DNA of 50,025 nt. Source: a virus (lineage: Duplodnaviria; Caudoviricetes). Under the pieces are notes generated by a model that saw only the letters and a program-made list of their open reading frames with translations, was not told where the DNA came from and searched no databases. Positions 23,446 to 36,860 of the stretch are shown here, one piece after another. The stretch is taken from the IMG/VR virus record IMGVR_UViG_3300017739_000018, positions 1 through 50,025 of that record, one strand, 5' to 3'. Each line of letters begins with the position of its first letter. Position 1 is the first letter of the stretch. Position numbers and translations under genes: made by a program.

Positions 23446-24231
23446 ATGAACATGAAAGAGTACGTCGAGTCTCTTGGCTTACATAACGACGAGTCACGTA
23501 GGATGGACTGCCCGTCATGCGGACATAAGAAGACATTTTCGGTCACCAATCAAGGTGGCACTCTCATGTGGAACTGTTTTTACGCAGATTGCTCTGTAAA
23601 AGGACGCACCAACCTCCGCATTACTCAACACAATTCAGACAATATAGTGGCTATGCTGAGTCAAAATACGCATAAAAAAACATCAGTATGTCCAGAAGTT
23701 CCATTTGAAAAACCAAAGTCTTGGTCTCGTGTGATACCTCCTCGTGGCATGGACTATATTCGTCTTGTCAATACGTCGGGACGGCACGATGACATTTACT
23801 TTGATGTTATACGAGATCGTCTTGTGTACCCAGTGTACGATACTCTGGGCGTACTCAAAGATGGTGTCGGACGTACGATGACGGGTCAAAGACCTAAGTG
23901 GTACAGATACGGTAATTATGATGGTGGTTTCCAAATTGGCACATCAGACATTATAGTTGTCGTTGAAGATGTGCCTTCCGCAATATCGATCAGTGATTGG
24001 GCGTCTGGGTACGCTCTTCTTGGTACAAGTTTACGTGATCGACACATACAAGAGCTATCTACGTATAAAAAAGTGGTGGTTGCTTTAGATAAAGATGCAA
24101 CTGATAAAGCGTTGACAATGATGCGAGCTCTTCATAGTATCGTGCCCACAGGAATGCTTATCTTAGATAAAGACTTGAAGACTCTCGGAGAACAAGAACG
24201 TGAATCAACAATTAGAACAGCAATCGCTTGA
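23446..24231 (+). CDS. DNA primase (zinc finger plus TOPRIM)
   Basis: CPSC...WNCFYADC zinc ribbon, PKWYRYG, VVVEDVPSA, ALDKDA; start chosen from the GAGG RBS. Confidence 0.9.
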   Translation: MNMKEYVESLGLHNDESRRMDCPSCGHKKTFSVTNQGGTLMWNCFYADCSVKGRTNLRITQHNSDNIVAMLSQNTHKKTSVCPEVPFEKPKSWSRVIPPRGMDYIRLVNTSGRHDDIYFDVIRDRLVYPVYDTLGVLKDGVGRTMTGQRPKWYRYGNYDGGFQIGTSDIIVVVEDVPSAISISDWASGYALLGTSLRDRHIQELSTYKKVVVALDKDATDKALTMMRALHSIVPTGMLILDKDLKTLGEQERESTIRTAIA

Positions 24232-25516
24232 AGCGAAGATCATATCGTTCTGTCTGCGGACGGAATGCTATGACCGTGTCAAAAACATCCTCGATAAAGA
24301 CATGTTTGAAGGAGAGTGGGCTCCTATATGGCAGGCTCTTGTCGAAGCTCATGCAGAATATACTGGAGACTTCACTGGAGCCGAGCTACAAGCTTATTTT
24401 GACTCAAGGCACCCCGCCCTACCTGACAGCACACGTTTGAGATACTGGGAGCATTTTGAGACACTAGCTGACAGTATCGGTAAGAACATTGATTTACAAG
24501 AACGAGTTATACGTGATTTATGGATGCGGCATCGTGCTCGTATTATCTCAGAGTTATCTGTCAACATATTTCTCGGTAAGGAGAATAACTTTGGAGAACT
24601 TAAGCGACTCATTGAATCCACAGCAGAGGATTCGATTGGCGAGAAGACGACGTACACGGAGGTGGACATGGGGCTCGAAGAGCTTCTGGACTCCCTTACG
24701 CTTGATCCCGATTTCCCCTTCGACTGGACGCCACTGTCGGGCCACGTTTCGGGATTGGATCGCGGTCATTTTGGAATCATCTTTGCTCGCCCGGAAACAG
24801 GTAAAACTACGTTTGTATCTTTCCTCGCAAAGAAGTTTCTCGAGCAAGGGTTTACCATTGCGGTGTGGGGAAACGAAGAGCCTGCTGTACGAACTAAACT
24901 ACGTATCATCCAAAGCTATTTTAAAGCTACGCGGAAAGAGCTCAGTGAACGGCGTGGTGAATACGCGGAAGTATGGCGTCGCAAGATCGGTGACCGTTTG
25001 CATGTTCTTGACTGTGTTGGAACGGCCATTCAGGAGATTGACGACTGGTGCAAGATTAACAAGCCGGATATCATATTCATCGATCAACTCGATAAAGTGA
25101 AGATTACAGGTAAATACAACCGTGGCGATGAAAAGCTCAAAGAAATTTATTTGCAAGCTAGAGAGATTGCCAAGAAGAACAAGTGTCTTGTTTGGGGTGT
25201 ATCTCAAGCCTCAGCGGAGGCTGACGGAATGCTTAACGTAGAGTACCAATATCTTGATAACTCTAAAACAGGAAAGGCCGGTGAGGCAGACCTTATTATT
25301 GGACTTGGCCGCACAGGAGACCGCAGTCCACAAAATACGAAACGATCTGTGTGTGTATCTAAAAATAAGCAGAATGGGTGGCATGGCACCATTCCTTGCG
25401 AGATCGACATGTATCGTGCGGTTTATGAGTCGCATAATACGGTTATAGAAGTGCCGGAAGAATATCGAGAGCCTGTGGCTCAACCAACCGAAGAGGACAT
25501 GAATAATGTTGAGTGA
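24200..25516 (+). CDS. Replicative helicase, SF4/DnaB-like
   Basis: Walker A ARPETGKT, IFIDQLD, VSQAS, EADLIIG, SKNK. Confidence 0.92.
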   Translation: MNQQLEQQSLEAKIISFCLRTECYDRVKNILDKDMFEGEWAPIWQALVEAHAEYTGDFTGAELQAYFDSRHPALPDSTRLRYWEHFETLADSIGKNIDLQERVIRDLWMRHRARIISELSVNIFLGKENNFGELKRLIESTAEDSIGEKTTYTEVDMGLEELLDSLTLDPDFPFDWTPLSGHVSGLDRGHFGIIFARPETGKTTFVSFLAKKFLEQGFTIAVWGNEEPAVRTKLRIIQSYFKATRKELSERRGEYAEVWRRKIGDRLHVLDCVGTAIQEIDDWCKINKPDIIFIDQLDKVKITGKYNRGDEKLKEIYLQAREIAKKNKCLVWGVSQASAEADGMLNVEYQYLDNSKTGKAGEADLIIGLGRTGDRSPQNTKRSVCVSKNKQNGWHGTIPCEIDMYRAVYESHNTVIEVPEEYREPVAQPTEEDMNNVE

Positions 25517-25970
25517 GTACAATGCTAGTTATCACACTCGTAAAACTTACGATTCAATATTAAGTAGATGCGGCCATCAAAATCACATACCGAATCCTTC
25601 TTTTACTGATTACATTGGAAAAGGAATTACCGTTTGTGAACGGTGGATAGAGTCTTATAAAAACTTTGTGGAGGACATGGGGCTTCGTCCATCAAAACGA
25701 ATGACTCTAGACCGTATAGATAATTCAAAGGGGTACTTTAAAGAGAATTGTAGGTGGGCAAGCTGGTTTGTACAGCAGTACAATCGGGTTAAGACACCCA
25801 AGAATTATTACCATGACAAAAGTCACACGCAGAAGTGGGTTGTTTCTTTTCAGGTCGAGGGCAAGACAATTAATGTGGGAAGATTTGAAGATGAAAAAAC
25901 GGCTAAGAAAGTGGCAAAGGGCATACATCGTCTGATTGACCGCTTTATCGAAACGGAGTTAATACGATGA
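25506..25970 (+). CDS. HNH endonuclease with C-terminal AP2-like domain (free-standing homing type)
   Basis: GKGITVCERW, TLDRIDNSKGYFKENCRWA, KWVVSFQVEGKTINVGRF. Confidence 0.8.
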   Translation: MLSEYNASYHTRKTYDSILSRCGHQNHIPNPSFTDYIGKGITVCERWIESYKNFVEDMGLRPSKRMTLDRIDNSKGYFKENCRWASWFVQQYNRVKTPKNYYHDKSHTQKWVVSFQVEGKTINVGRFEDEKTAKKVAKGIHRLIDRFIETELIR

Positions 25971-26521
25971 ACATTTTGACGTTTGACATTGAATGCACAC
26001 ATAGATTCAAGCCTAACGGTAAGCACACACCCTTGCCCTACTTTGGTAATCACCTTGTCAGTATTGGTTACAAGGTTACCAATGACCCGGTAAATTACAT
26101 CTTCTTTCATCATGAGGAGCGTAAGCCAACGCCAAACGGCTTTGAAACATTTCAACATGCACTGGACTTTGCAGATGTAGTTGTTGGGCACAACATCAAG
26201 TTTGACATTAACTGGATACGCGAGTGTGGTTTTAAGTATGAGGGTAATGTGTATGATACGATGGTTGCAGAGTATGTGTTGGCTAGGGCACGTAAATGGC
26301 CCCTTTCACTTGCGGCCCTTGCTAAAAGGTATGAGGTTACTCAGAAGAAAAAAGATCTTACGGAGGATTACCTTAAGAGCGGCAAGACGTTTGCACAGAT
26401 CCCGTGGGAAATAGTGCAAGAGTACGGTATTGCTGACGTAAAGGCTACATGGGAGGTAGCCCAAAAACAGGTAACGGAAAAGTATTACACAACATGGAAA
26501 GAATTGTATGGCAGAATTTAA
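25967..26521 (+). CDS. 3'-5' exonuclease domain of family A DNA polymerase (separate gene)
   Basis: ExoI FDIE, ExoII GHNIKFD, YDTM, ExoIII YGIAD. Confidence 0.88.
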   Translation: MNILTFDIECTHRFKPNGKHTPLPYFGNHLVSIGYKVTNDPVNYIFFHHEERKPTPNGFETFQHALDFADVVVGHNIKFDINWIRECGFKYEGNVYDTMVAEYVLARARKWPLSLAALAKRYEVTQKKKDLTEDYLKSGKTFAQIPWEIVQEYGIADVKATWEVAQKQVTEKYYTTWKELYGRI

Positions 26522-26609
26522 CACTTGGTCTAAAGAGAAGATAGATGACGTTAAGGCGTTGAAGGAGATGTTGAATGCAAACGATTTATCAAGAAGTAGT
26601 CGTGACTAA
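26508..26609 (+). CDS. Putative 33-aa peptide
   Basis: MAEFNTWSKEKIDDVKALKEMLNANDLSRSSRD; bridges the exonuclease stop and the next ORF. Confidence 0.35.
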   Translation: MAEFNTWSKEKIDDVKALKEMLNANDLSRSSRD

Positions 26610-26829
26610 TGAACTGCCCAGAATCGGGTCAGGCTATCGATTAGTCAAGGTTCAGATCGGAACCAAGTGGGTCCACATCAGTGATCTTGATGGGGAAAAC
26701 CGTACAAAGGTTGGCATGAAAACTTGGTCAGCAATCAAGAAAGGCAATACGATAGAACCGGAGGTCGTTCTGAAGGGCCTGCGCAAAGCTGATAGAGCGT
26801 TGGGTCGAAAAGCGAGGAGAAAATTATAA
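26575..26829 (+). CDS. Hypothetical protein
   Basis: AAGGAG RBS; ELPRIGSGYR..V..G.KWV. Confidence 0.6.
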   Translation: MQTIYQEVVVTNELPRIGSGYRLVKVQIGTKWVHISDLDGENRTKVGMKTWSAIKKGNTIEPEVVLKGLRKADRALGRKARRKL

Positions 26830-27143
26830 TGGCTAAAGCAAAAAGACCTCTTGTTAGTTGGACACAAGAGCAACTCGATGAACTTGTTAAGTTATACCTT
26901 GAGGGTTTAACTTTTGAAAAGATATCTTTACAGCTAGGCATGTCCCATGCTTCAACAAAGGCAAAGATTACATTTCTTCGCCAAAAAGGTGTAGACTTAC
27001 CTTATCGGGACAGACAAAGCATCGCCGAAAAAAGAAGTAAAACAATGAAAAGCGGTAAAAAGAAATCAACAGCATTTGATCGTGAGTATCGGGGATCTGT
27101 ACCATTCGGTCATTGGATAATTACCAAACCGTGGAGGTTGTGA
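26829..27143 (+). CDS. GcrA-N-terminal-like HTH protein
   Basis: WTQEQLDELVKLYLEGLTFEKISLQLGMS..STKAKI..LR resembles the GcrA/Myb-like HTH. Confidence 0.55.
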   Translation: MAKAKRPLVSWTQEQLDELVKLYLEGLTFEKISLQLGMSHASTKAKITFLRQKGVDLPYRDRQSIAEKRSKTMKSGKKKSTAFDREYRGSVPFGHWIITKPWRL

Positions 27144-27334
27144 TGTGTGGCGGAATATATGAAGAGGATTTTGAGAATGTCCCAGAGACAGATACAAAAG
27201 TCTCCAAGAAAAAGAGACCCAGTAGTGTGGATTCTGGGAATGGGTGGATGAACGATTTAAAATTTACTACGGCAGAGGATTTTATGAAAGAACAAGATGA
27301 GTACTACTATCCGGGTAGTGACCCACAGGAGTGA
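27143..27334 (+). CDS. Small acidic hypothetical protein
   Basis: GGAGG RBS and TGATG overlap; MCGGIYEEDF. Confidence 0.55.
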   Translation: MCGGIYEEDFENVPETDTKVSKKKRPSSVDSGNGWMNDLKFTTAEDFMKEQDEYYYPGSDPQE

Positions 27335-27338
27335 GACG

Positions 27339-27548
27339 ATGAATCAGATACTTTTGGTATTTGTAATTACTGGTTTTCAACCTACCGTATCGGACAGAGT
27401 TTTTGAATCATATGACGAATGCAAACAGTTCGTAAATACACTTGCAAAGCAAAGTGTGGTCAACAGTGACTATGGCTTTCAGTTTTTATCTTCAGACAGG
27501 TTGTTAGTCTCAGGTCAATGTGTCGCAAAAGAGGATTATCAAACATGA
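27339..27548 (+). CDS. Small protein with hydrophobic N-terminus and two Cys
   Basis: AGGAG RBS; MNQILLVFVITG...FESYDEC...GQC. Confidence 0.55.
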   Translation: MNQILLVFVITGFQPTVSDRVFESYDECKQFVNTLAKQSVVNSDYGFQFLSSDRLLVSGQCVAKEDYQT

Positions 27549-27868
27549 AAATATTCAAAGCATTTGAGGAGAACGGATGGGTGGCACTAACCAAGTTTGG
27601 TTACGGTTTACTTGATGGCACAAAAAATGCACTCAAGTTTGCACCTATGGAGTACAAGTATTTACTTACGATTTTGTTAGCCGCTATGTGGTGTATTGCT
27701 TTTGGCATATACACGACTGAGTTACTGTACATCGGGTACAATATTATCGGTCACTATGTGCTGATTACCTGCGTGTTTTTTACTTGGTTTGTATTTACTA
27801 CTGAAAAGAGACGTGCACCAAAGTCACCACCAAACAAAGTAAAATGGGACATAGAAAAGGAGGCGTAG
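27545..27868 (+). CDS. Two-TM membrane protein
   Basis: GAGG RBS; hydrophobic LLTILLAAMWCIAFGIY and IIGHYVLITCVFFTWFVF. Confidence 0.65.
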   Translation: MKIFKAFEENGWVALTKFGYGLLDGTKNALKFAPMEYKYLLTILLAAMWCIAFGIYTTELLYIGYNIIGHYVLITCVFFTWFVFTTEKRRAPKSPPNKVKWDIEKEA

Positions 27869-27871
27869 GAG

Positions 27872-28015
27872 ATGATTAAAGTGTATGCTTTCATTTTGTT
27901 TGTATTTAGTGCTACAGCAGGTGTTGGACACTTCATGTCAAACGAAAGCAGAAGTATTGGATTTACCAATATTTGCGGAGAACATAAATATTTTTGTATA
28001 AGGGAAAAACAATAA
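27872..28015 (+). CDS. 47-aa signal-peptide/membrane peptide
   Basis: MIKVYAFILFVFSATAGVGHFMSNESRSIGFTNICGEHKYFCIREKQ, with AGGAGG upstream. Confidence 0.5.
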   Translation: MIKVYAFILFVFSATAGVGHFMSNESRSIGFTNICGEHKYFCIREKQ

Positions 28016-28053
28016 ACAAAAAGCCCTTAGTATATTAAAGGAGATTAAAGCCT

Positions 28054-29601
28054 ATGGCATCGAAATTATTAAACACCCTACGTCTTTCTTTGGAGATGAC
28101 GGATGTCCTTGCGAACCTCGAGAGGACAGGCATCAAGGTTGACCCAGTTGCTCTTGACGAGATTGAAAAAGAGTATCGAAATGAGATGAACGCGCTAGAA
28201 GTCAGACTACAGCGTATGGCTGAAGAAGCGATGGGAGACACACCGATCAACCTTAATAGTGCGGATGACCGCTCAATGCTGTTTTACTCACGTAAGGTGC
28301 TAGATAAAAAGCGATGGTCCTCCATCTTTAACTTGGGATCAGAGTTACGCGGTGCTACCCGCAAACCTAAGCAACGTACGAAAATGACAAAAAAATTATT
28401 CGGCTTGTACGTAAAAGACGAAACAGAAGTCTTGCACAAAACTATCGCATCGAAGTGCACTGCCTGTATGGGACAGGGACGTAAAAAAGTTATCAAGAAA
28501 GATGGTACGCAAGGTAAAGCTGTGCGTGTATGTAAATCCTGTGGCGGGGATGGAATAATATATGCGAAGACTAAACAGATTGCGGGCTTTAAAATTATCC
28601 CGAGGGATGCGTGGGACACGGCGGCCGCAGGATTCAAGACAGACCACGAAACTCTTAGGGATCGTATGGATGAGCTTTCTGGTGACGCCCGAGAGTTTGC
28701 AGAGTCATATTCCCGCTACAATGCACTTAGAACGTACCTCTCTACTTTCGTCGAAGGACTCAAGAACAATCGAGACAGAGATGACATCGTACACCCCGAT
28801 TTTATGCAGTGTGTCACAGCTACCGGACGACTCAGTTCTCGTAACCCCAATTTCCAAAATATGCCCCGTGGTTCTACATTCGCTATTCGGAGAGCAATGG
28901 TCTCTCGTTTTGACGGAGGACAAATCCTCGAAGCTGACTACGGACAGCTCGAATTCAGAGTCGCAGGATTTCTAGCTAATGACCCTCAAGCATATCACGA
29001 TGTGGAGAACAAGACTGATGTACACACAGTTACTGCTGAGATTATTGGGTGTTCCCGCCAAGATGCTAAAGCACACACCTTTAAACCTCTTTACGGGGGC
29101 ACCACAGGTACTGCTGACCAACAGCGATACTACCGGACTTTTAAAGAGAAGTATGCTGGCGTAACGGCGTGGCACGACAAGTTGCAAAAGGATGCGGTGG
29201 AAAAGGGCTTCATCACTTTACCTTCAGGCAGACAGTATGCATTCCCCGGTACGACGTGGACAGAGTGGGGTACAGCGACTAACAGGACAGCTATCTGTAA
29301 CTACCCTGTGCAGGGCTTTGCAACCGCCGATCTCTTGCCGGTCGCTCTAGTAAAGTTGCGTAAGTCCATGAGAAGTACAAGATTTTTAAAGAGTGTGATC
29401 TGTAATACCGTGCACGATAGTATAGTGCTTGACATTTTTCCGGGTGAAGAGGATACTTGTATTAATCTTGTGGTGGAGGCAATGATGTCATTACCCGAAG
29501 AGTGTCGGCGGAGATATGGTGTAGAGTATGATATGCCAATATCAGTCGAGTGTAAGATGGGGTCCAACTGGCTGGATACCCAAGTTGTTTACGCAAACTA
29601 A
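28054..29601 (+). CDS. polA: Family A DNA polymerase domain with DnaJ-like zinc finger
   Basis: CTACMGQG and CKSCGGDG; TATGRLSS, motif A DYGQLEFR, motif B RQDAKAHTFKPLYG, motif C VHDS; own AAGGAG RBS. Confidence 0.95.
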   Translation: MASKLLNTLRLSLEMTDVLANLERTGIKVDPVALDEIEKEYRNEMNALEVRLQRMAEEAMGDTPINLNSADDRSMLFYSRKVLDKKRWSSIFNLGSELRGATRKPKQRTKMTKKLFGLYVKDETEVLHKTIASKCTACMGQGRKKVIKKDGTQGKAVRVCKSCGGDGIIYAKTKQIAGFKIIPRDAWDTAAAGFKTDHETLRDRMDELSGDAREFAESYSRYNALRTYLSTFVEGLKNNRDRDDIVHPDFMQCVTATGRLSSRNPNFQNMPRGSTFAIRRAMVSRFDGGQILEADYGQLEFRVAGFLANDPQAYHDVENKTDVHTVTAEIIGCSRQDAKAHTFKPLYGGTTGTADQQRYYRTFKEKYAGVTAWHDKLQKDAVEKGFITLPSGRQYAFPGTTWTEWGTATNRTAICNYPVQGFATADLLPVALVKLRKSMRSTRFLKSVICNTVHDSIVLDIFPGEEDTCINLVVEAMMSLPEECRRRYGVEYDMPISVECKMGSNWLDTQVVYAN

Positions 29602-29611
29602 GGAGAGCGTT

Positions 29612-30427
29612 ATGGGCGAAGTGAGCGTTATAGGCATGTCTCTTTCTGAGGCAATTAAAACTGGAGATCAGGAGCTTATCCTAAAAGCATCTGGACAAAC
29701 TGAGGCGGATCAGCCAAAGGCTGGTTTGGCACGTCTTAACATTAATTATGATACGGACACGGACGACGGTCATACATTAAAGAAGGGCACATGGAAAGTG
29801 TACTACGATGGCGAATTTGTATACGCGGATAGTGTACATTTTCATCCTTACCTTCGTACTTACGAGTGGTCTGTGTGGGATAACGACGAGAGTAAATTCT
29901 CAAGTCGGTCAGTTCAAGCTGAATCGCTTGATTATCAATTCCCCGACACCACAGGAGGAAACAAGTGTGGCCGCTTAACTAAGTCGGACGAAGAGGCGTT
30001 GGGTGAGGATCATCCGAAAACACTGGCATCGCGTTTAGCGACATGCAATCAGGTTTTCTATGGCATGATCAGCATGAAAGGTAAGAATGCTGGAGGAAAA
30101 ACTATCGAAGTCAAAGACTTCCCAGTCGTTTCTTACTTCAAGCGTTCTGGCTTCCGTCCCGCACGTGAGGCAGTTCAGAAGTTGGGCAAGACACCACTAC
30201 ACACGGTGACTTTTAATTTGACGACTCAGCGTCAAAAGATGGGTAGTGTTGTGTACTTTACTCCTGTGTTTACGCAAGATAAAAGTGCGAATGTTGACAT
30301 TGATACCCTTGTAATGTTTGAGGATACAGTCAAAGCATCTAACACAATGATTATGGAACAGCATAAGGAGGCTTTTAAAGCCAAAGCTAGTGAACAAGAA
30401 GTTGACTTAGCGGCGGACTTTGCCTAA
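29612..30427 (+). CDS. Putative single-stranded DNA-binding protein
   Basis: AAGGAG RBS before MGEVSV; follows pol; acidic/aromatic C-terminus (DLAADFA). Confidence 0.5.
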   Translation: MGEVSVIGMSLSEAIKTGDQELILKASGQTEADQPKAGLARLNINYDTDTDDGHTLKKGTWKVYYDGEFVYADSVHFHPYLRTYEWSVWDNDESKFSSRSVQAESLDYQFPDTTGGNKCGRLTKSDEEALGEDHPKTLASRLATCNQVFYGMISMKGKNAGGKTIEVKDFPVVSYFKRSGFRPAREAVQKLGKTPLHTVTFNLTTQRQKMGSVVYFTPVFTQDKSANVDIDTLVMFEDTVKASNTMIMEQHKEAFKAKASEQEVDLAADFA

Positions 30428-36203: not shown

Positions 36204-36376
36204 CGGACAGGCAAGTTCAGACAATGTTGGATAGGCTAAAGATACATGCGGATGCCGCACGAACAAATCCCTTGATAGGCGATGCTGAATTGCTTGACTC
36301 AGCACGTAAAATGATCTACGATCTACGGAACAAGTTGAGATTTAGAAAACCGTATGATCGAGATCGTACCAACTAA
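36200..36376 (+). CDS. Hypothetical protein
   Basis: GGAGG RBS and ATGA overlap; MTDRQVQTML. Confidence 0.55.
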   Translation: MTDRQVQTMLDRLKIHADAARTNPLIGDAELLDSARKMIYDLRNKLRFRKPYDRDRTN

Positions 36377-36860
36377 AAAACAAATTGAAGAAGCTAGCTT
36401 TTCTGCTGGTGAAACAATAGGGTTGCAAGGAAGCATTACTCAAGGGGCAGGAAGCCCCGCCGGGGCCCTCGGAGAGATCGTAGTACGAGATCTTTTAGGA
36501 TACAAACAGATTAACACAGCCCACTACGATCTATATACGGATAAAGGCGTTCGCATCGACGTTAAGACTAAACGGTGCACTTCCCCTCCAAAACCTTTCT
36601 ACGAATGCTCGATTACAGCTCATGGCACTAAACAGGAGTGTGATGAGTACATTTTCGTACGTGTGTTAAATAACTTGCAACGTGCGTGGATACTTGGTAG
36701 TATCGCAAAAGATGAATACTTCTCTAAAGCTGTGAGGTACAAAAAGGGCGACAAGGACGAGAGCAATAATTTTACCTTTAAATCGGACTGCTACAATTTA
36801 GCTATAGAGGAATTATGGCCGATTCAAAAGCACAGCTACTCAACTTTACAATCGAGCTAA
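36354..36860 (+). CDS. PD-(D/E)XK restriction-endonuclease-like protein
   Basis: GALGE...YDL...IDVKTK. Confidence 0.6.
   Translation: MIEIVPTKKQIEEASFSAGETIGLQGSITQGAGSPAGALGEIVVRDLLGYKQINTAHYDLYTDKGVRIDVKTKRCTSPPKPFYECSITAHGTKQECDEYIFVRVLNNLQRAWILGSIAKDEYFSKAVRYKKGDKDESNNFTFKSDCYNLAIEELWPIQKHSYSTLQSS

What the first reader, a model, noticed from the sequence alone, without database searches (positions are those of the whole stretch)
25967..29601. DNA polymerase split into exonuclease and polymerase genes by a 1.5-kb microgene cassette
Seen: the exonuclease ORF stops right after ExoIII, and the DnaJ-finger/polymerase ORF restarts 1532 nt later with its own RBS. Seven small same-strand ORFs lie between them. 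Established: the HMO-2011-type polymerase is described as a single exo-DnaJ-pol polypeptide. Inference: a gene fission giving a two-subunit enzyme, which could allow proofreading to be tuned separately, with the break acting as an insertion hotspot. The HNH-AP2 gene just upstream is a possible driver.
Basis: partly seen in the sequence, partly recalled or inferred. Interest (0 to 1): 0.7.

Follow-up and report, generated by a model that had tools for sequence, protein, structure and literature searches.

The report
Split phage polymerase holding swapped genes
In this marine phage the DNA polymerase is encoded as two separate genes, as it is in a large group of uncultured relatives, and the gap between them holds a block of small accessory genes copied from a different phage lineage.

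Summary
A complete DEDDy exonuclease ORF (25967-26521) and a DnaJ-finger/PolA ORF (28054-29601) lie 1532 nt apart, with seven same-strand ORFs between them. Contigs from independent runs bridge both junctions.

The break sits in the exo-pol linker. Rfam finds no intron, and there is no room for an intein.

The split is older than the insert and is not special to this genome. Of 159 assessable loci, 52 are fused (including 4 cultured phages), 86 are split with abutting genes, and 21 are split with inserts. On the pol tree the insert clade nests inside abutting-split clades, which are sister to fused ones. All 96 split exonucleases keep their catalytic residues. A complex model supports exo-pol binding (score 0.90, best control 0.00), although this may be recall of single-chain PolA folds.

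The insert (26543-28019) is 88-93% nt identical to a block that lies between primase and helicase in another HMO-2011-type lineage. It carries a scar of that lineage's primase 3' end.

The HNH gene is not shown to be the driver. First-reader notes from this scan report abutting splits in four other genomes.

The parts
24200..25516 (+). Replicative helicase (context; the gene upstream of the HNH gene)
   Evidence: 438-aa ORF. Weak homologue (29% aa) of the helicase in lineage-B loci. Cultured relatives have the order primase-helicase-polymerase.
25506..25970 (+). Free-standing HNH endonuclease gene between helicase and exo. Its stop overlaps the exo ATG.
   Evidence: PHROG phrog_374 'HNH endonuclease' 7.2e-32. 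No Pfam hit at E<=0.1 apart from DUF7911 at 0.1, and no NCBIfam hit, so the AP2 label was not confirmed by any tool. Homologues sit at the same position in 8 other insert loci and in none of the abutting loci.
25967..26521 (+). Stand-alone DEDDy 3'-5' exonuclease subunit (184 aa)
   Evidence: PF01612 50.7 bits. Aligns to the N-terminal ~172 residues of fused homologues. D7, E9, D80, Y153 and D157 are invariant in 96/96 split and 48/48 fused homologues. Single copy in the window.
26508..26609 (+). 33-aa chimeric ORF, a recombination scar. It is made of the first ~12 codons of a resident F2 (GcrA-like) gene joined to the last 21 codons of a lineage-B primase gene.
   Evidence: Its ATG sits where the F2 ATG sits in L013 and L014, and its N-terminus aligns with F2 N-termini. 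Residues 13-33 (26544-26606) are 90% identical to residues 278-298 of the L231 primase ORF.
26543..28019 (.). Block shared at 88-93% nt identity with another HMO-2011-type lineage, where it lies between primase and helicase
   Evidence: blastn against L219, L221/L230, L222/L231, L229 and L232 (in L232 the match runs to 28047). The match is patchy. 27135-27338 (o73) matches only L229, L233 and L234, at 76-80%. The flanking core genes are only 29-40% aa identical.
26575..26829 (+). o84, a conserved small protein of unknown function
   Evidence: 15 homologue clusters at 62-95% identity and full length. First gene of the block in lineage B. Weak Pfam hint only (Phage_ProQ_C_like, E 0.096).
26829..27143 (+). 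F2, a small helix-turn-helix protein with a GcrA-like N-terminus and a conserved C-terminal GHW(M/I)ITKPW motif. It is the recurrent anchor gene of the cassette.
   Evidence: PF07750 GcrA 24.8 bits, below the 26.9 cutoff. 5 of 15 family members hit GcrA, 4 hit HTH_23 and 3 hit HTH_38. NCBIfam GcrA 18 bits against a 280 cutoff. Found by ORF clustering in 15 of the 20 insert loci of the window's clade, counting the window, always between exo and pol. 21 homologue clusters, all unnamed. No match in the cultured-phage collection.
27113..27334 (+). o73, a small acidic protein
   Evidence: 73% identical homologue in L013 and 70-71% in L229, L233 and L234.
27339..27548 (+). o69, a small protein. The ORF opens at 27297, but the homologues start at the Met at 27339.
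   Evidence: 9 homologue clusters of 69-73 aa covering 82% of the 83-aa ORF. 79-91% identical in lineage-B loci.
27545..27868 (+). o107/o116, a probable membrane protein. The ORF opens at 27518, and homology starts near 27530-27545.
   Evidence: Homologues in L015 (between exo and pol), in L029 (downstream of pol) and in L047/L063 (upstream of exo, opposite strand). 90-95% identical in lineage B, where the ORF is 107 aa. The hydrophobic stretches are read from the translation. No TM tool was run.
27872..28015 (+). o47, a small hydrophobic protein
   Evidence: Homologues in L013 and L029. 83-89% identical in lineage B.
28013..28053 (+). Remnant of the 'F9' gene (start codon lost, body deleted) followed by the pol Shine-Dalgarno sequence
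   Evidence: In most insert loci a ~104-aa ORF beginning MSKKP... runs into the pol start. In the window only its last part, which overlaps pol, matches (F9 residues 65-103 at 28038-28154). A degenerate 5' end is read from the sequences. Lineage B has an F9 homologue after o47 (E 1.3e-5).
28054..29601 (+). Polymerase subunit (515 aa): N-terminal helix, DnaJ-type double CxxCxGxG finger, and family A polymerase domain
   Evidence: PF00476 173.2 bits. 47.8% identical to residues ~175-680 of the HTVC033P DNAP. Many residues are invariant across 26 split homologues. Single copy.

Best explanation
The phage is an HMO-2011-type marine podovirus. Its family A DNA polymerase gene underwent a fission in the linker between the 3'-5' exonuclease domain and the polymerase N-terminal helix. 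This happened well before the present genome arose.

In the ancestral split state the two genes abut or overlap, the polymerase has its own Shine-Dalgarno sequence and ATG, and translation is probably coupled. The two products most likely reassemble without a covalent link into a Klenow-like enzyme. The predicted contact is between the pol N-terminal helix and the exo core plus its short C-terminal tail.

Once exo|pol had become an intergenic junction, it began to hold small accessory genes in one sub-clade. This cassette usually starts with a GcrA-like HTH gene (F2) and ends with a small gene (F9) that overlaps the pol start.

In the window most of that resident cassette was replaced by a ~1.5-kb block (o84, F2, o73, o69, o107, o47) from a different HMO-2011-type lineage, in which the block lies between primase and helicase. 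The left crossover fell inside the resident F2 gene and left a 33-codon chimera that ends with the donor's primase tail. The right crossover fell inside F9 and left a dead remnant just before the pol ribosome-binding site.

Shown here: the anatomy, the distribution of the three states, the block homology, the scars and the retained catalytic residues. Inferred: assembly of the two subunits, co-transcription, and any function of the cassette.
For: Break mapping: the exo and pol ORFs align end to end with single-ORF polymerases of HTVC033P, HMO-2011, CRP-3 and CRP-1, leaving about 6-8 linker residues unaccounted for. They also match consecutive parts of one PHROG profile.

Not an assembly error: contigs from independent runs bridge both junctions with 0 differences.

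Not an intron: 0 Rfam matches at E<=1 in 25000-30000.

Split is ancestral and common:
- Of the 80 nearest IMG/VR loci, 72 show both parts and 0 of these are fused. 53 abut or overlap and 19 carry inserts.
- The abutting loci have a conserved GAGGA plus ATG/TTG. In the overlap the pol-frame residues are conserved while the exo-frame tail varies.
- Over all loci: 52 fused, 86 abutting, 21 with insert, out of 159 assessable.
- Among representatives of 1.84 billion proteins, 18 of the 89 near-full-length ones used are pol-only.
- In the tree of 153 rows the window sits in a 19-row all-insert clade (99*). That lies within a 23-row clade (20 insert, 3 abutting; 100*), within a 72-row all-split clade (99*), within a 96-row all-split set (93), which is sister to a 44-row all-fused clade.

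Both halves look functional: DEDDy residues are invariant in 96/96 split exo ORFs, and the pol is strongly conserved.

Assembly of the two subunits: complex model ipSAE 0.90 in 3 runs, best of 3 controls 0.00, runs agree in >=92% of contacts, partner pLDDT >=90. That mark was reached by 58 of 80 solved complexes and 2 of 110 mismatched pairs.

Cassette turnover:
- Gene families recur in different combinations.
- In run X7, co-occurring variants diverge from the window at 26484 and 27540.
- L154 has an independent insert with different genes.

Block transfer and scars.
Against: - No RNA or protein data. The one RNA-library contig (X20, 26639-26864) comes from an oligo-dT library and may be DNA.
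- The complex pass may simply reflect the model's memory of single-chain PolA/Klenow structures, so it shows likeness rather than binding.
- The FastTree of 50%-identity representatives needs at least 6 fused/split changes, and a fused representative (P0002) sits beside the window's pair. One ancient fission is therefore not the whole story. Re-fusions or repeated fissions must have occurred, or some pol-only representatives are truncated gene calls.
- The loci were sampled with split-lineage queries and include a few duplicates of one contig, so the 52/86/21 tally is not a prevalence.
- The direction of block transfer rests on a single 21-codon primase tail.
- Block identity is patchy, and o73 is absent from the best-matching donor loci.
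Confidence: 0.85

Rival explanations
1. The 1.5-kb stretch is a self-splicing intron, or the two halves are joined by protein trans-splicing (split intein), so the mature polymerase is a single polypeptide as in cultured HMO-2011-type phages.
For: Group I introns and inteins are common in phage polymerase genes. Authors raised an intron as a possibility for the split DNAP of MEP401/402 (passages read in PMC10580990). About 15 PolA representatives of ~1000 aa with two matched stretches suggest that intein-like inserts occur in this family.
Against: No Rfam match at E<=1. The stretch is filled with protein-coding genes whose homologues are conserved at protein level. The same block lies between two genes (primase and helicase), not inside a gene, in another lineage. 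Relatives have the two ORFs abutting in different frames with nothing to splice out. Only ~6-8 linker residues are unaccounted for and the exo tail is 13 aa, which leaves no room for split-intein halves.
Confidence: 0.03
2. The arrangement is an assembly chimera: DNA from a different phage was wrongly joined between the two halves of a contiguous polymerase gene.
For: The window is a metagenome-assembled IMG/VR record. The insert is near-identical to DNA of another co-occurring phage lineage, which is the kind of repeat that can mislead assemblers.
Against: Logan contigs from other studies cover 26322-27369, 27995-28300 (X4) and 27867-28198 (X6) with 0 differences and bridge both junctions. 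19 other IMG/VR contigs of the same clade, from different metagenomes, also have inserts between exo and pol. The exo stop and the pol start are those of the split clade. The junctions carry scars of resident cassette genes.
Confidence: 0.02
3. The neighbouring HNH homing endonuclease created the split and/or drives cassette exchange. It would cut HNH-less relatives near the polymerase gene, so that repair copies flanking DNA, including the cassette.
For: An HNH gene (PHROG 7e-32) abuts the exo gene. Homologues occur at the same place in 8 other insert loci and in none of the abutting loci held. Homing endonuclease genes that split or accompany split phage genes are known, for example mobE/nrdA, mobA/gene 60 and seg/gene 43 (passages read in PMC2988022).
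Against: The HNH gene lies upstream of exo, not at the break. The split exists in 86 loci in which no such HNH was found. 12 of the 21 insert loci lack it. The association with inserts is confounded by descent, because it involves one clade. The scars are those of recombination between phage genomes at short similarities. None of the seven cassette ORFs hits a nuclease family.
Confidence: 0.1
4. The exo gene is a decaying remnant, and the phage works with an exonuclease-less polymerase, with or without host proofreading.
For: The two genes are no longer translationally coupled in the window, and exo is less conserved than pol among close relatives (73-80% against 84-91% identity).
Against: All five DEDDy catalytic residues are invariant in 96/96 split exo ORFs. 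ORF lengths stay at 168-197 aa with no internal stops. The complex model gives a confident interface that includes the exo C-terminal tail.
Confidence: 0.03

Closest known systems
HMO-2011-type DNA polymerase (Puniceispirillum phage HMO-2011, Roseobacter phages CRP-1/2/3 and others, Pelagibacter phage HTVC033P)
   Same: These are the nearest cultured relatives, at 36-48% aa identity to pol and 33-44% to exo. The domain order is the same (exo, two CxxCxGxG motifs, PolA), as is the primase-helicase-polymerase gene order.
   Different: All the cultured records examined encode one ORF of ~680-705 aa. Here there are two genes 1532 nt apart. Qin et al. 2022 (PMC9038755, passages read) describe the exo-DnaJ-pol structure for all isolates and 207 MVGs. 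The word 'split' does not occur in the main text.
Split PolB gp43 (43A/43B) of T4-related Aeromonas phages 25 and 44RR (Petrov, Ratnayaka, Karam 2010, as summarised in PMC2988022)
   Same: A phage replicative polymerase gene split into two cistrons, separated either by a short untranslated spacer or by a longer insert with extra genes. The two products co-purify and are active. The authors raised the idea that an insert invaded an already split gene (passages read).
   Different: That enzyme is family B, not family A. The split position is different. Its insert carries a seg homing endonuclease, whereas here no nuclease lies inside the break and the cargo is a GcrA-like HTH gene plus small membrane and unknown proteins.
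Split DNAP of MEP401-type OM43 phages (PMC10580990)
   Same: Marine podoviruses related to HMO-2011-type phages. Their PolA is encoded by two ORFs with a small unknown ORF between them, and the state is seen in most related MVGs (passages read).
   Different: There the break lies inside the polymerase domain (ORF13 is exo plus the N-terminal part of pol, ORF15 is the C-terminal part of pol), with a single small ORF between. Here the break is at the exo|pol linker and holds a 1.5-kb multi-gene block.
Stand-alone phage 'DNA polymerase exonuclease subunit' families (PHROG phrog_403, phrog_192)
   Same: The window's exo also hits these families (5.5e-11 and 2.2e-9). This shows that separate proofreading subunits are an annotated category in phages.
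   Different: The best hit is to the fused-polymerase family phrog_17 (3.9e-28). The window's exo is therefore a recently detached domain of that family, not a member of the older stand-alone families.
Phage-encoded GcrA homologues (for example phiCbK gp222; PMC3556154)
   Same: F2 resembles the N-terminal DNA-binding part of GcrA. Phages of Alphaproteobacteria are known to carry GcrA homologues (passages read).
   Different: F2 is ~100 aa, scores below the Pfam and NCBIfam cutoffs, matches only profile positions 2-66 of 155, and has its own conserved C-terminal motif.

Membership tests
Family A DNA polymerase (Pfam PF00476) | Significant match to the family profile above the curated cutoff | tested here: met
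   173.2 bits against a 34.3 cutoff, residues 195-507. NCBIfam DNA polymerase I partial hits.
Family A DNA polymerase (Pfam PF00476) | Conserved catalytic motifs A, B and C (motif names recalled, not from a tool) | tested here: met
   D295, R335, K339, Y347, H454 and D455 are invariant in 26 split homologues. The assignment of these residues to motifs A, B and C is my recollection.
DEDDy 3'-5' exonuclease (Pfam PF01612) | Profile match above the cutoff, with the ExoI, ExoII and ExoIII acidic residues and the Tyr present | tested here: met
   50.7 bits against a 23.6 cutoff. D7, E9, D80, Y153 and D157 are invariant in 96/96 split and 48/48 fused homologues.
HMO-2011-type DNAP | Partial DnaJ central domain with two CXXCXGXG motifs between the exo and pol domains (criterion used by Qin 2022) | tested here: met
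   Two motifs are seen in the translation. C135, C138, G140, G142, C160, C163 and G167 are invariant and G165 is nearly invariant. The Pfam PF00684 hit is only 19.8 bits, below the 32.7 cutoff.
HMO-2011-type DNAP | Single exo-DnaJ-pol polypeptide, as described for all published members | tested here: not met
   Two ORFs 1532 nt apart. No relative in the 72-locus neighbourhood is fused.
Group I / group II intron | Ribozyme core detectable by covariance model, and an insert lying within a gene and removed from the RNA | tested here: not met
   0 Rfam matches at E<=1. The same block is intergenic in another lineage. RNA removal could not be tested.
Intein / split intein | Intein N- and C-terminal splicing domains at the break | tested here: not met
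   Exo ends 13 residues after the aligned domain and pol starts at the conserved helix. About 6-8 residues are unaccounted for. There are no intein Pfam hits.
Gene split by a homing-endonuclease insertion (mobE/nrdA type) | An endonuclease gene lying inside the break | tested here: not met
   None of the seven ORFs hits a nuclease family in Pfam or PHROGs. The HNH gene lies upstream of exo.
GcrA family (PF07750 / NF050816), for ORF 26829-27143 | Match above the curated cutoff covering both the DNA-binding domain and the sigma-70-binding domain | tested here: not met
   24.8 bits against 26.9, profile positions 2-66 of 155 only. 18 bits against 280. 5 of 15 relatives hit, best 2e-5.

The most novel reading that the evidence does not exclude
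In this abundant marine phage group, fission of polA turned an intragenic linker into a recombination-permissive junction. The same accessory block now moves between different junctions of the replication module (primase|helicase in one lineage, exo|pol in another), by recombination at short similarities near gene starts. Because exo and pol are no longer translationally coupled in the insert-bearing clade, the ratio of proofreading to polymerase subunits, and hence the mutation rate, could differ between strains according to the cargo they carry.
Probability: 0.12. Interest if true: 0.7.

Novelty: new member of a known kind. Interest (0 to 1): 0.42.

Why it matters
HMO-2011-type phages are among the most abundant marine viruses. 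Their polymerase is used as a marker, and searches for it use length and coverage filters. A large uncultured clade that encodes the enzyme as two genes would be missed or misfiled by such filters (the criteria in PMC9038755 are >=80% coverage and >540 aa).

The locus also offers a natural series: fused, then split and abutting, then split with 0.2-1.5 kb of cargo. This series could be used to study how a polymerase tolerates loss of the covalent link to its proofreading domain, and how a new intergenic junction becomes a site of gene exchange.

The recombination scars show directly that two subgroups with only 30-40% identical core genes exchanged a block. This implies co-infection of a shared host, or at least contact between the two lineages.

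Tried and rejected
**Intron.** An Rfam E-value scan of 25000-30000 gave 0 matches.

**Promoter or terminator inside the insert.** The consensus scan found nothing convincing on the + strand between 25970 and 28054. There is one weak terminator-like site at 27680-27692, inside an ORF. Co-transcription is therefore assumed, not shown.

**Repeats flanking the insert.** Only short RBS-like similarities turned up, D5 and D13. The GGAG...TATGGC words at both junctions could be a duplicated ancestral junction, or simply the Shine-Dalgarno, ATG and Ala-codon constraints. I do not claim a target-site duplication.

**Programmed frameshift joining exo and pol in the abutting relatives.** Rejected for three reasons. 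The pol frame is +1 in some lineages and +2 in others. The overlaps vary (41 nt, 11 nt, 4 nt, or small gaps). A conserved SD plus ATG/TTG precedes pol.

**Function of F2.** Pfam, PHROGs and NCBIfam give only sub-threshold GcrA/HTH hits. There is no match among 50,697 cultured-phage records. All 21 homologue clusters are unnamed.

**Expression.** The only RNA-library holder (X20) gave one 226-nt contig (26639-26864) from an oligo-dT library. It is not evidence of transcription. Parts of the stretch without cover in X4, X6 or X7 mean nothing.

I then used the search for related loci with P0004, P0012 and P0002. P0014, P0076 and the other pol-only representatives remain unchecked and could be truncated gene calls.

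**Literature.**
- 'HMO-2011-type' + 'DNA polymerase': 16 papers, listing seen. I read passages of PMC9038755 by term search, and 'split' occurs 0 times.
- 'split DNA polymerase' + 'phage': 10 papers, listing seen. I read passages of PMC10580990 and 10.1101/325100.
- gp43/split search, passages of PMC2988022.
- GcrA search, passages of PMC3556154.
Supplementary Fig. 3 of PMC9038755 (DNAP alignment) might show split forms that I could not see.
- I did not find the exo|pol split of HMO-2011-type phages described in these searches. That is not proof that it is unpublished.

**Earlier notes of this scan.** Four first-reader notes on other genomes report the abutting split. The seven notes on this genome concern other regions.

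Full report
**1. What the window is**

The window is a complete IMG/VR virus record of 50,025 bp with a CheckV estimate of 94%. Its polymerase, exonuclease, primase and helicase are closest to HMO-2011-type marine podoviruses: Pelagibacter phage HTVC033P, Puniceispirillum phage HMO-2011 and the Roseobacter CRP phages.

**2. The observation**

- ORF 25967-26521 (184 aa) is a 3'-5' exonuclease (PF01612, 50.7 bits).
- ORF 28054-29601 (515 aa) is a family A polymerase (PF00476, 173.2 bits). It has a weak DnaJ_CXXCXGXG hit and two visible CxxCxGxG motifs.
- The two ORFs match consecutive parts of one PHROG polymerase profile, positions 670-833 and 841-1234.
- Aligned with four single-ORF polymerases of cultured relatives, they fit end to end. 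The exo ORF covers the exonuclease domain plus a 13-residue tail. The pol ORF starts at the conserved helix that follows the linker. Only about 6-8 linker residues are unaccounted for.
- The gap is 1532 nt and holds seven same-strand ORFs.
- Logan contigs from runs of other studies match with 0 differences and bridge both junctions. X4 covers 26322-27369 and 27995-28300, and X6 covers 27867-28198.

**3. What it is not**

- Rfam finds nothing at E<=1 in 25000-30000.
- There is no room for intein halves.
- None of the seven ORFs hits a nuclease or transposase catalytic family.

**4. The split is old and common**

I fetched the 80 IMG/VR loci most similar to the pol protein (65-91% identity).
- 72 of them show both parts, and none is fused.
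- In 53 the two genes abut or overlap. Fifty have a 41-nt overlap, two have an 11-nt overlap, and one has a 4-nt overlap on the refined start.
- 19 carry inserts of 205-1243 nt.

In the abutting loci a GAGGA-type Shine-Dalgarno and an ATG (or TTG) precede pol. Within the overlap the pol-frame residues are conserved while the exo-frame tail varies. This marks pol as the constrained frame and points to independent initiation.

A phmmer search of 1.84 billion 50%-identity representatives gave a less biased view. I took 89 near-full-length hits and added the window's pol as a 90th row. Of the 89 hits, 68 are fused (about 680-790 aa, with the match starting near residue 170-260). Eighteen are pol-only (493-546 aa, with the match starting at residue 3-16). 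Three are partial.

Further loci found with P0004, P0012 and P0002 confirmed more split lineages. In these, pol is in the +1 or the +2 frame relative to exo. They also confirmed fused lineages. The overall tally of assessable loci is 52 fused (4 of them cultured), 86 abutting and 21 with inserts, out of 159. A further 59 loci could not be assessed. This sample is biased by my choice of queries and contains a few duplicated contigs, so it is not a prevalence.

A FastTree of 153 pol sequences places the window as follows:
- in a 19-row clade in which every member has an insert (support 99),
- inside a 23-row clade with three abutting members (100),
- inside a 72-row all-split clade (99),
- inside a 96-row all-split set (93),
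- which is sister to a 44-row all-fused clade (99).

With the cultured fused forms as the outer reference, the simplest order is fused, then split and abutting, then split with cargo. The tree of representatives needs at least six changes, so more than one fission or some re-fusion is likely. Some pol-only representatives could be truncated gene calls.

**5. Are both halves alive, and do they meet?**

All five DEDDy residues are invariant in 96 of 96 split exonuclease ORFs and in 48 of 48 fused ones. The pol is highly conserved.

A complex prediction with my own alignments scored 0.90 in three runs, against 0.00 for the best of three controls. The runs agree in at least 92% of contacts and the partner's pLDDT is at least 90. 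That mark was reached by 58 of 80 solved complexes and by 2 of 110 mismatched pairs. The interface joins pol residues 1-24, 234-257 and 386-398 to exo residues 77-113 and to the exo tail 172-181.

These are halves of a fold that is solved many times as one chain, so the pass may be recall. It shows likeness, not binding.

**6. The cargo**

Across the 20 insert loci of the window's clade, counting the window, two families recur.
- F2 is a ~90-104-aa HTH protein with a GcrA-like N-terminus and a conserved C-terminal motif. ORF clustering finds it in 15 of the 20, always directly after exo.
- F1 is found in 17 of the 20, although the window's member shares little more than a leader.

Rarer families are F4, F6, F7 and F8. 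In most loci a ~104-aa ORF (F9) runs into the pol start.

L154, in a separate pol lineage, has its own insert with a lipoprotein-like ORF and a membrane ORF. Run X7 holds variants that diverge from the window at 26484 and 27540. The junction therefore does behave as a variable site.

**7. Origin of the window's insert**

Searching IMG/VR with two of the insert's ORFs found loci L219, L221/L230, L222/L231, L229 and L232. In these, o84, F2, (o73), o69, o107 and o47 occur in the same order at 79-99% aa identity and 88-93% nt identity over 26543-27134 and 27545-28019. The surrounding genes are only 29% (helicase), 40% (exo) and 31% (pol) identical.

That lineage is another HMO-2011-type subgroup.
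- Its polymerase is a single ORF, 55% identical to that of HMO-2011 itself.
- It carries an integrase.
- The block lies between its primase (42% identical to the HMO-2011 primase) and its helicase. In HMO-2011 those two genes are adjacent.

The boundaries in the window tell the story.
- **Left boundary.** The 33-codon ORF at 26508 starts at the ATG that F2 uses in L013 and L014, and its first ~12 codons look like an F2 N-terminus. From 26544 on it is 90% identical to the last 21 codons of the other lineage's primase.
- **Right boundary.** After o47 comes a degenerate F9 5' end without a start codon. This is joined to the last bases of F9 that carry the pol Shine-Dalgarno.

A block from a genome with the primase-cassette-helicase order therefore replaced most of a resident F2...F9 cassette, by recombination inside F2 and F9. 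The direction of transfer rests on the primase tail.

Other shuffles point the same way.
- o107 and o47 lie downstream of pol in L029.
- The 164-aa ORF between helicase and pol in L231 is 44% identical to a gene at 36354-36833 of the window.

**8. The HNH gene**

The ORF at 25506-25970 is an HNH endonuclease by PHROG (7e-32). It has no Pfam or NCBIfam hit, so the AP2 label is unconfirmed. It sits between helicase and exo. Homologues occur there in 8 other insert loci and in none of the abutting loci held. This association is confounded by descent. The split exists without the HNH gene, and the scars indicate phage-phage recombination. A helper role through double-strand breaks is possible but not shown.

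**9. Comparison with what is known**

- Qin et al. 2022 (PMC9038755) describe the exo-DnaJ-pol structure for the isolates and 207 MVGs, and do not use the word 'split'. Their criteria (>=80% alignment length, >540 aa) would exclude a 515-aa pol (passages read).
- Split PolA genes are reported for MEP401-type OM43 phages, with a break inside the pol domain and one small ORF, and for a cyanophage lineage.
- The split PolB gp43 of Aeromonas phages has a spacer or a seg-containing insert, and its halves co-purify. It is the closest conceptual precedent.
- PHROG families named 'DNA polymerase exonuclease subunit' show that stand-alone proofreading subunits are a recognised category.
- Four first-reader notes of this scan report the abutting split in other genomes.

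**10. Verdict**

This is a real, functional-looking gene fission of a known kind. It is the normal state of a large uncultured clade and has probably been overlooked because of length filters. The gap is used as a slot for exchangeable accessory genes. The specific new points are the graded natural series and the documented block transfer, with scars, between two junctions of the replication module. Interest is moderate.

Noticed in passing
proteins P0009, P0041, P0053, P0055, P0069, P0071, P0074, P0075, P0082, P0086, P0102, P0111, P0112, P0117 and others: About 15 HMO-2011-type PolA representatives are ~1000-1050 aa and match the window's pol in two stretches that break near query residue ~343. 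This looks like an intein-sized insertion in the polymerase domain of some lineages.
   Followed up: no
L009:714-1028 and the equivalent place in most insert loci; window 28013-28154: A ~104-aa ORF (F9, beginning MSKKP...) ends inside the pol gene, overlapping its first ~107 nt in another frame. The window keeps only a dead 5' remnant and the overlapping 3' part. Lineage B has a distant homologue after o47 (E 1.3e-5).
   Followed up: partly
window 26484 and 27540 (run X7): Contigs in one virome run match the window up to these points and then continue with unlike sequence. This suggests that co-occurring strains differ in the exo tail and in cassette content.
   Followed up: no
L154:2936-3504: In a separate pol lineage (P0012), the exo|pol gap holds two different small ORFs. 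One has a lipoprotein-like signal (…LTIAVSSC) and the other is hydrophobic. This is an independent use of the same junction.
   Followed up: partly
window 36354-36833 and L231:6580-7071: The 164-aa ORF that lies between helicase and the fused polymerase in lineage B is 44% identical to a gene about 7 kb downstream of pol in the window. It is another accessory gene found at different places in the two lineages. It has no Pfam hit at 1e-3.
   Followed up: no
window 27113-27145 and the starts of several cassette ORFs in L010, L013, L021, L023 and L025: A conserved N-terminal leader (…VMCGGIYEEDF) heads otherwise unrelated small ORFs that directly follow the F2 gene. It may be a conserved DNA element (translation coupling or a recombination site) rather than a protein feature.
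   Followed up: no
window 26639-26864 (run X20): A 226-nt contig with 3 differences is present in an oligo-dT marine RNA library. It may be DNA carry-over and is not evidence of transcription.
   Followed up: no
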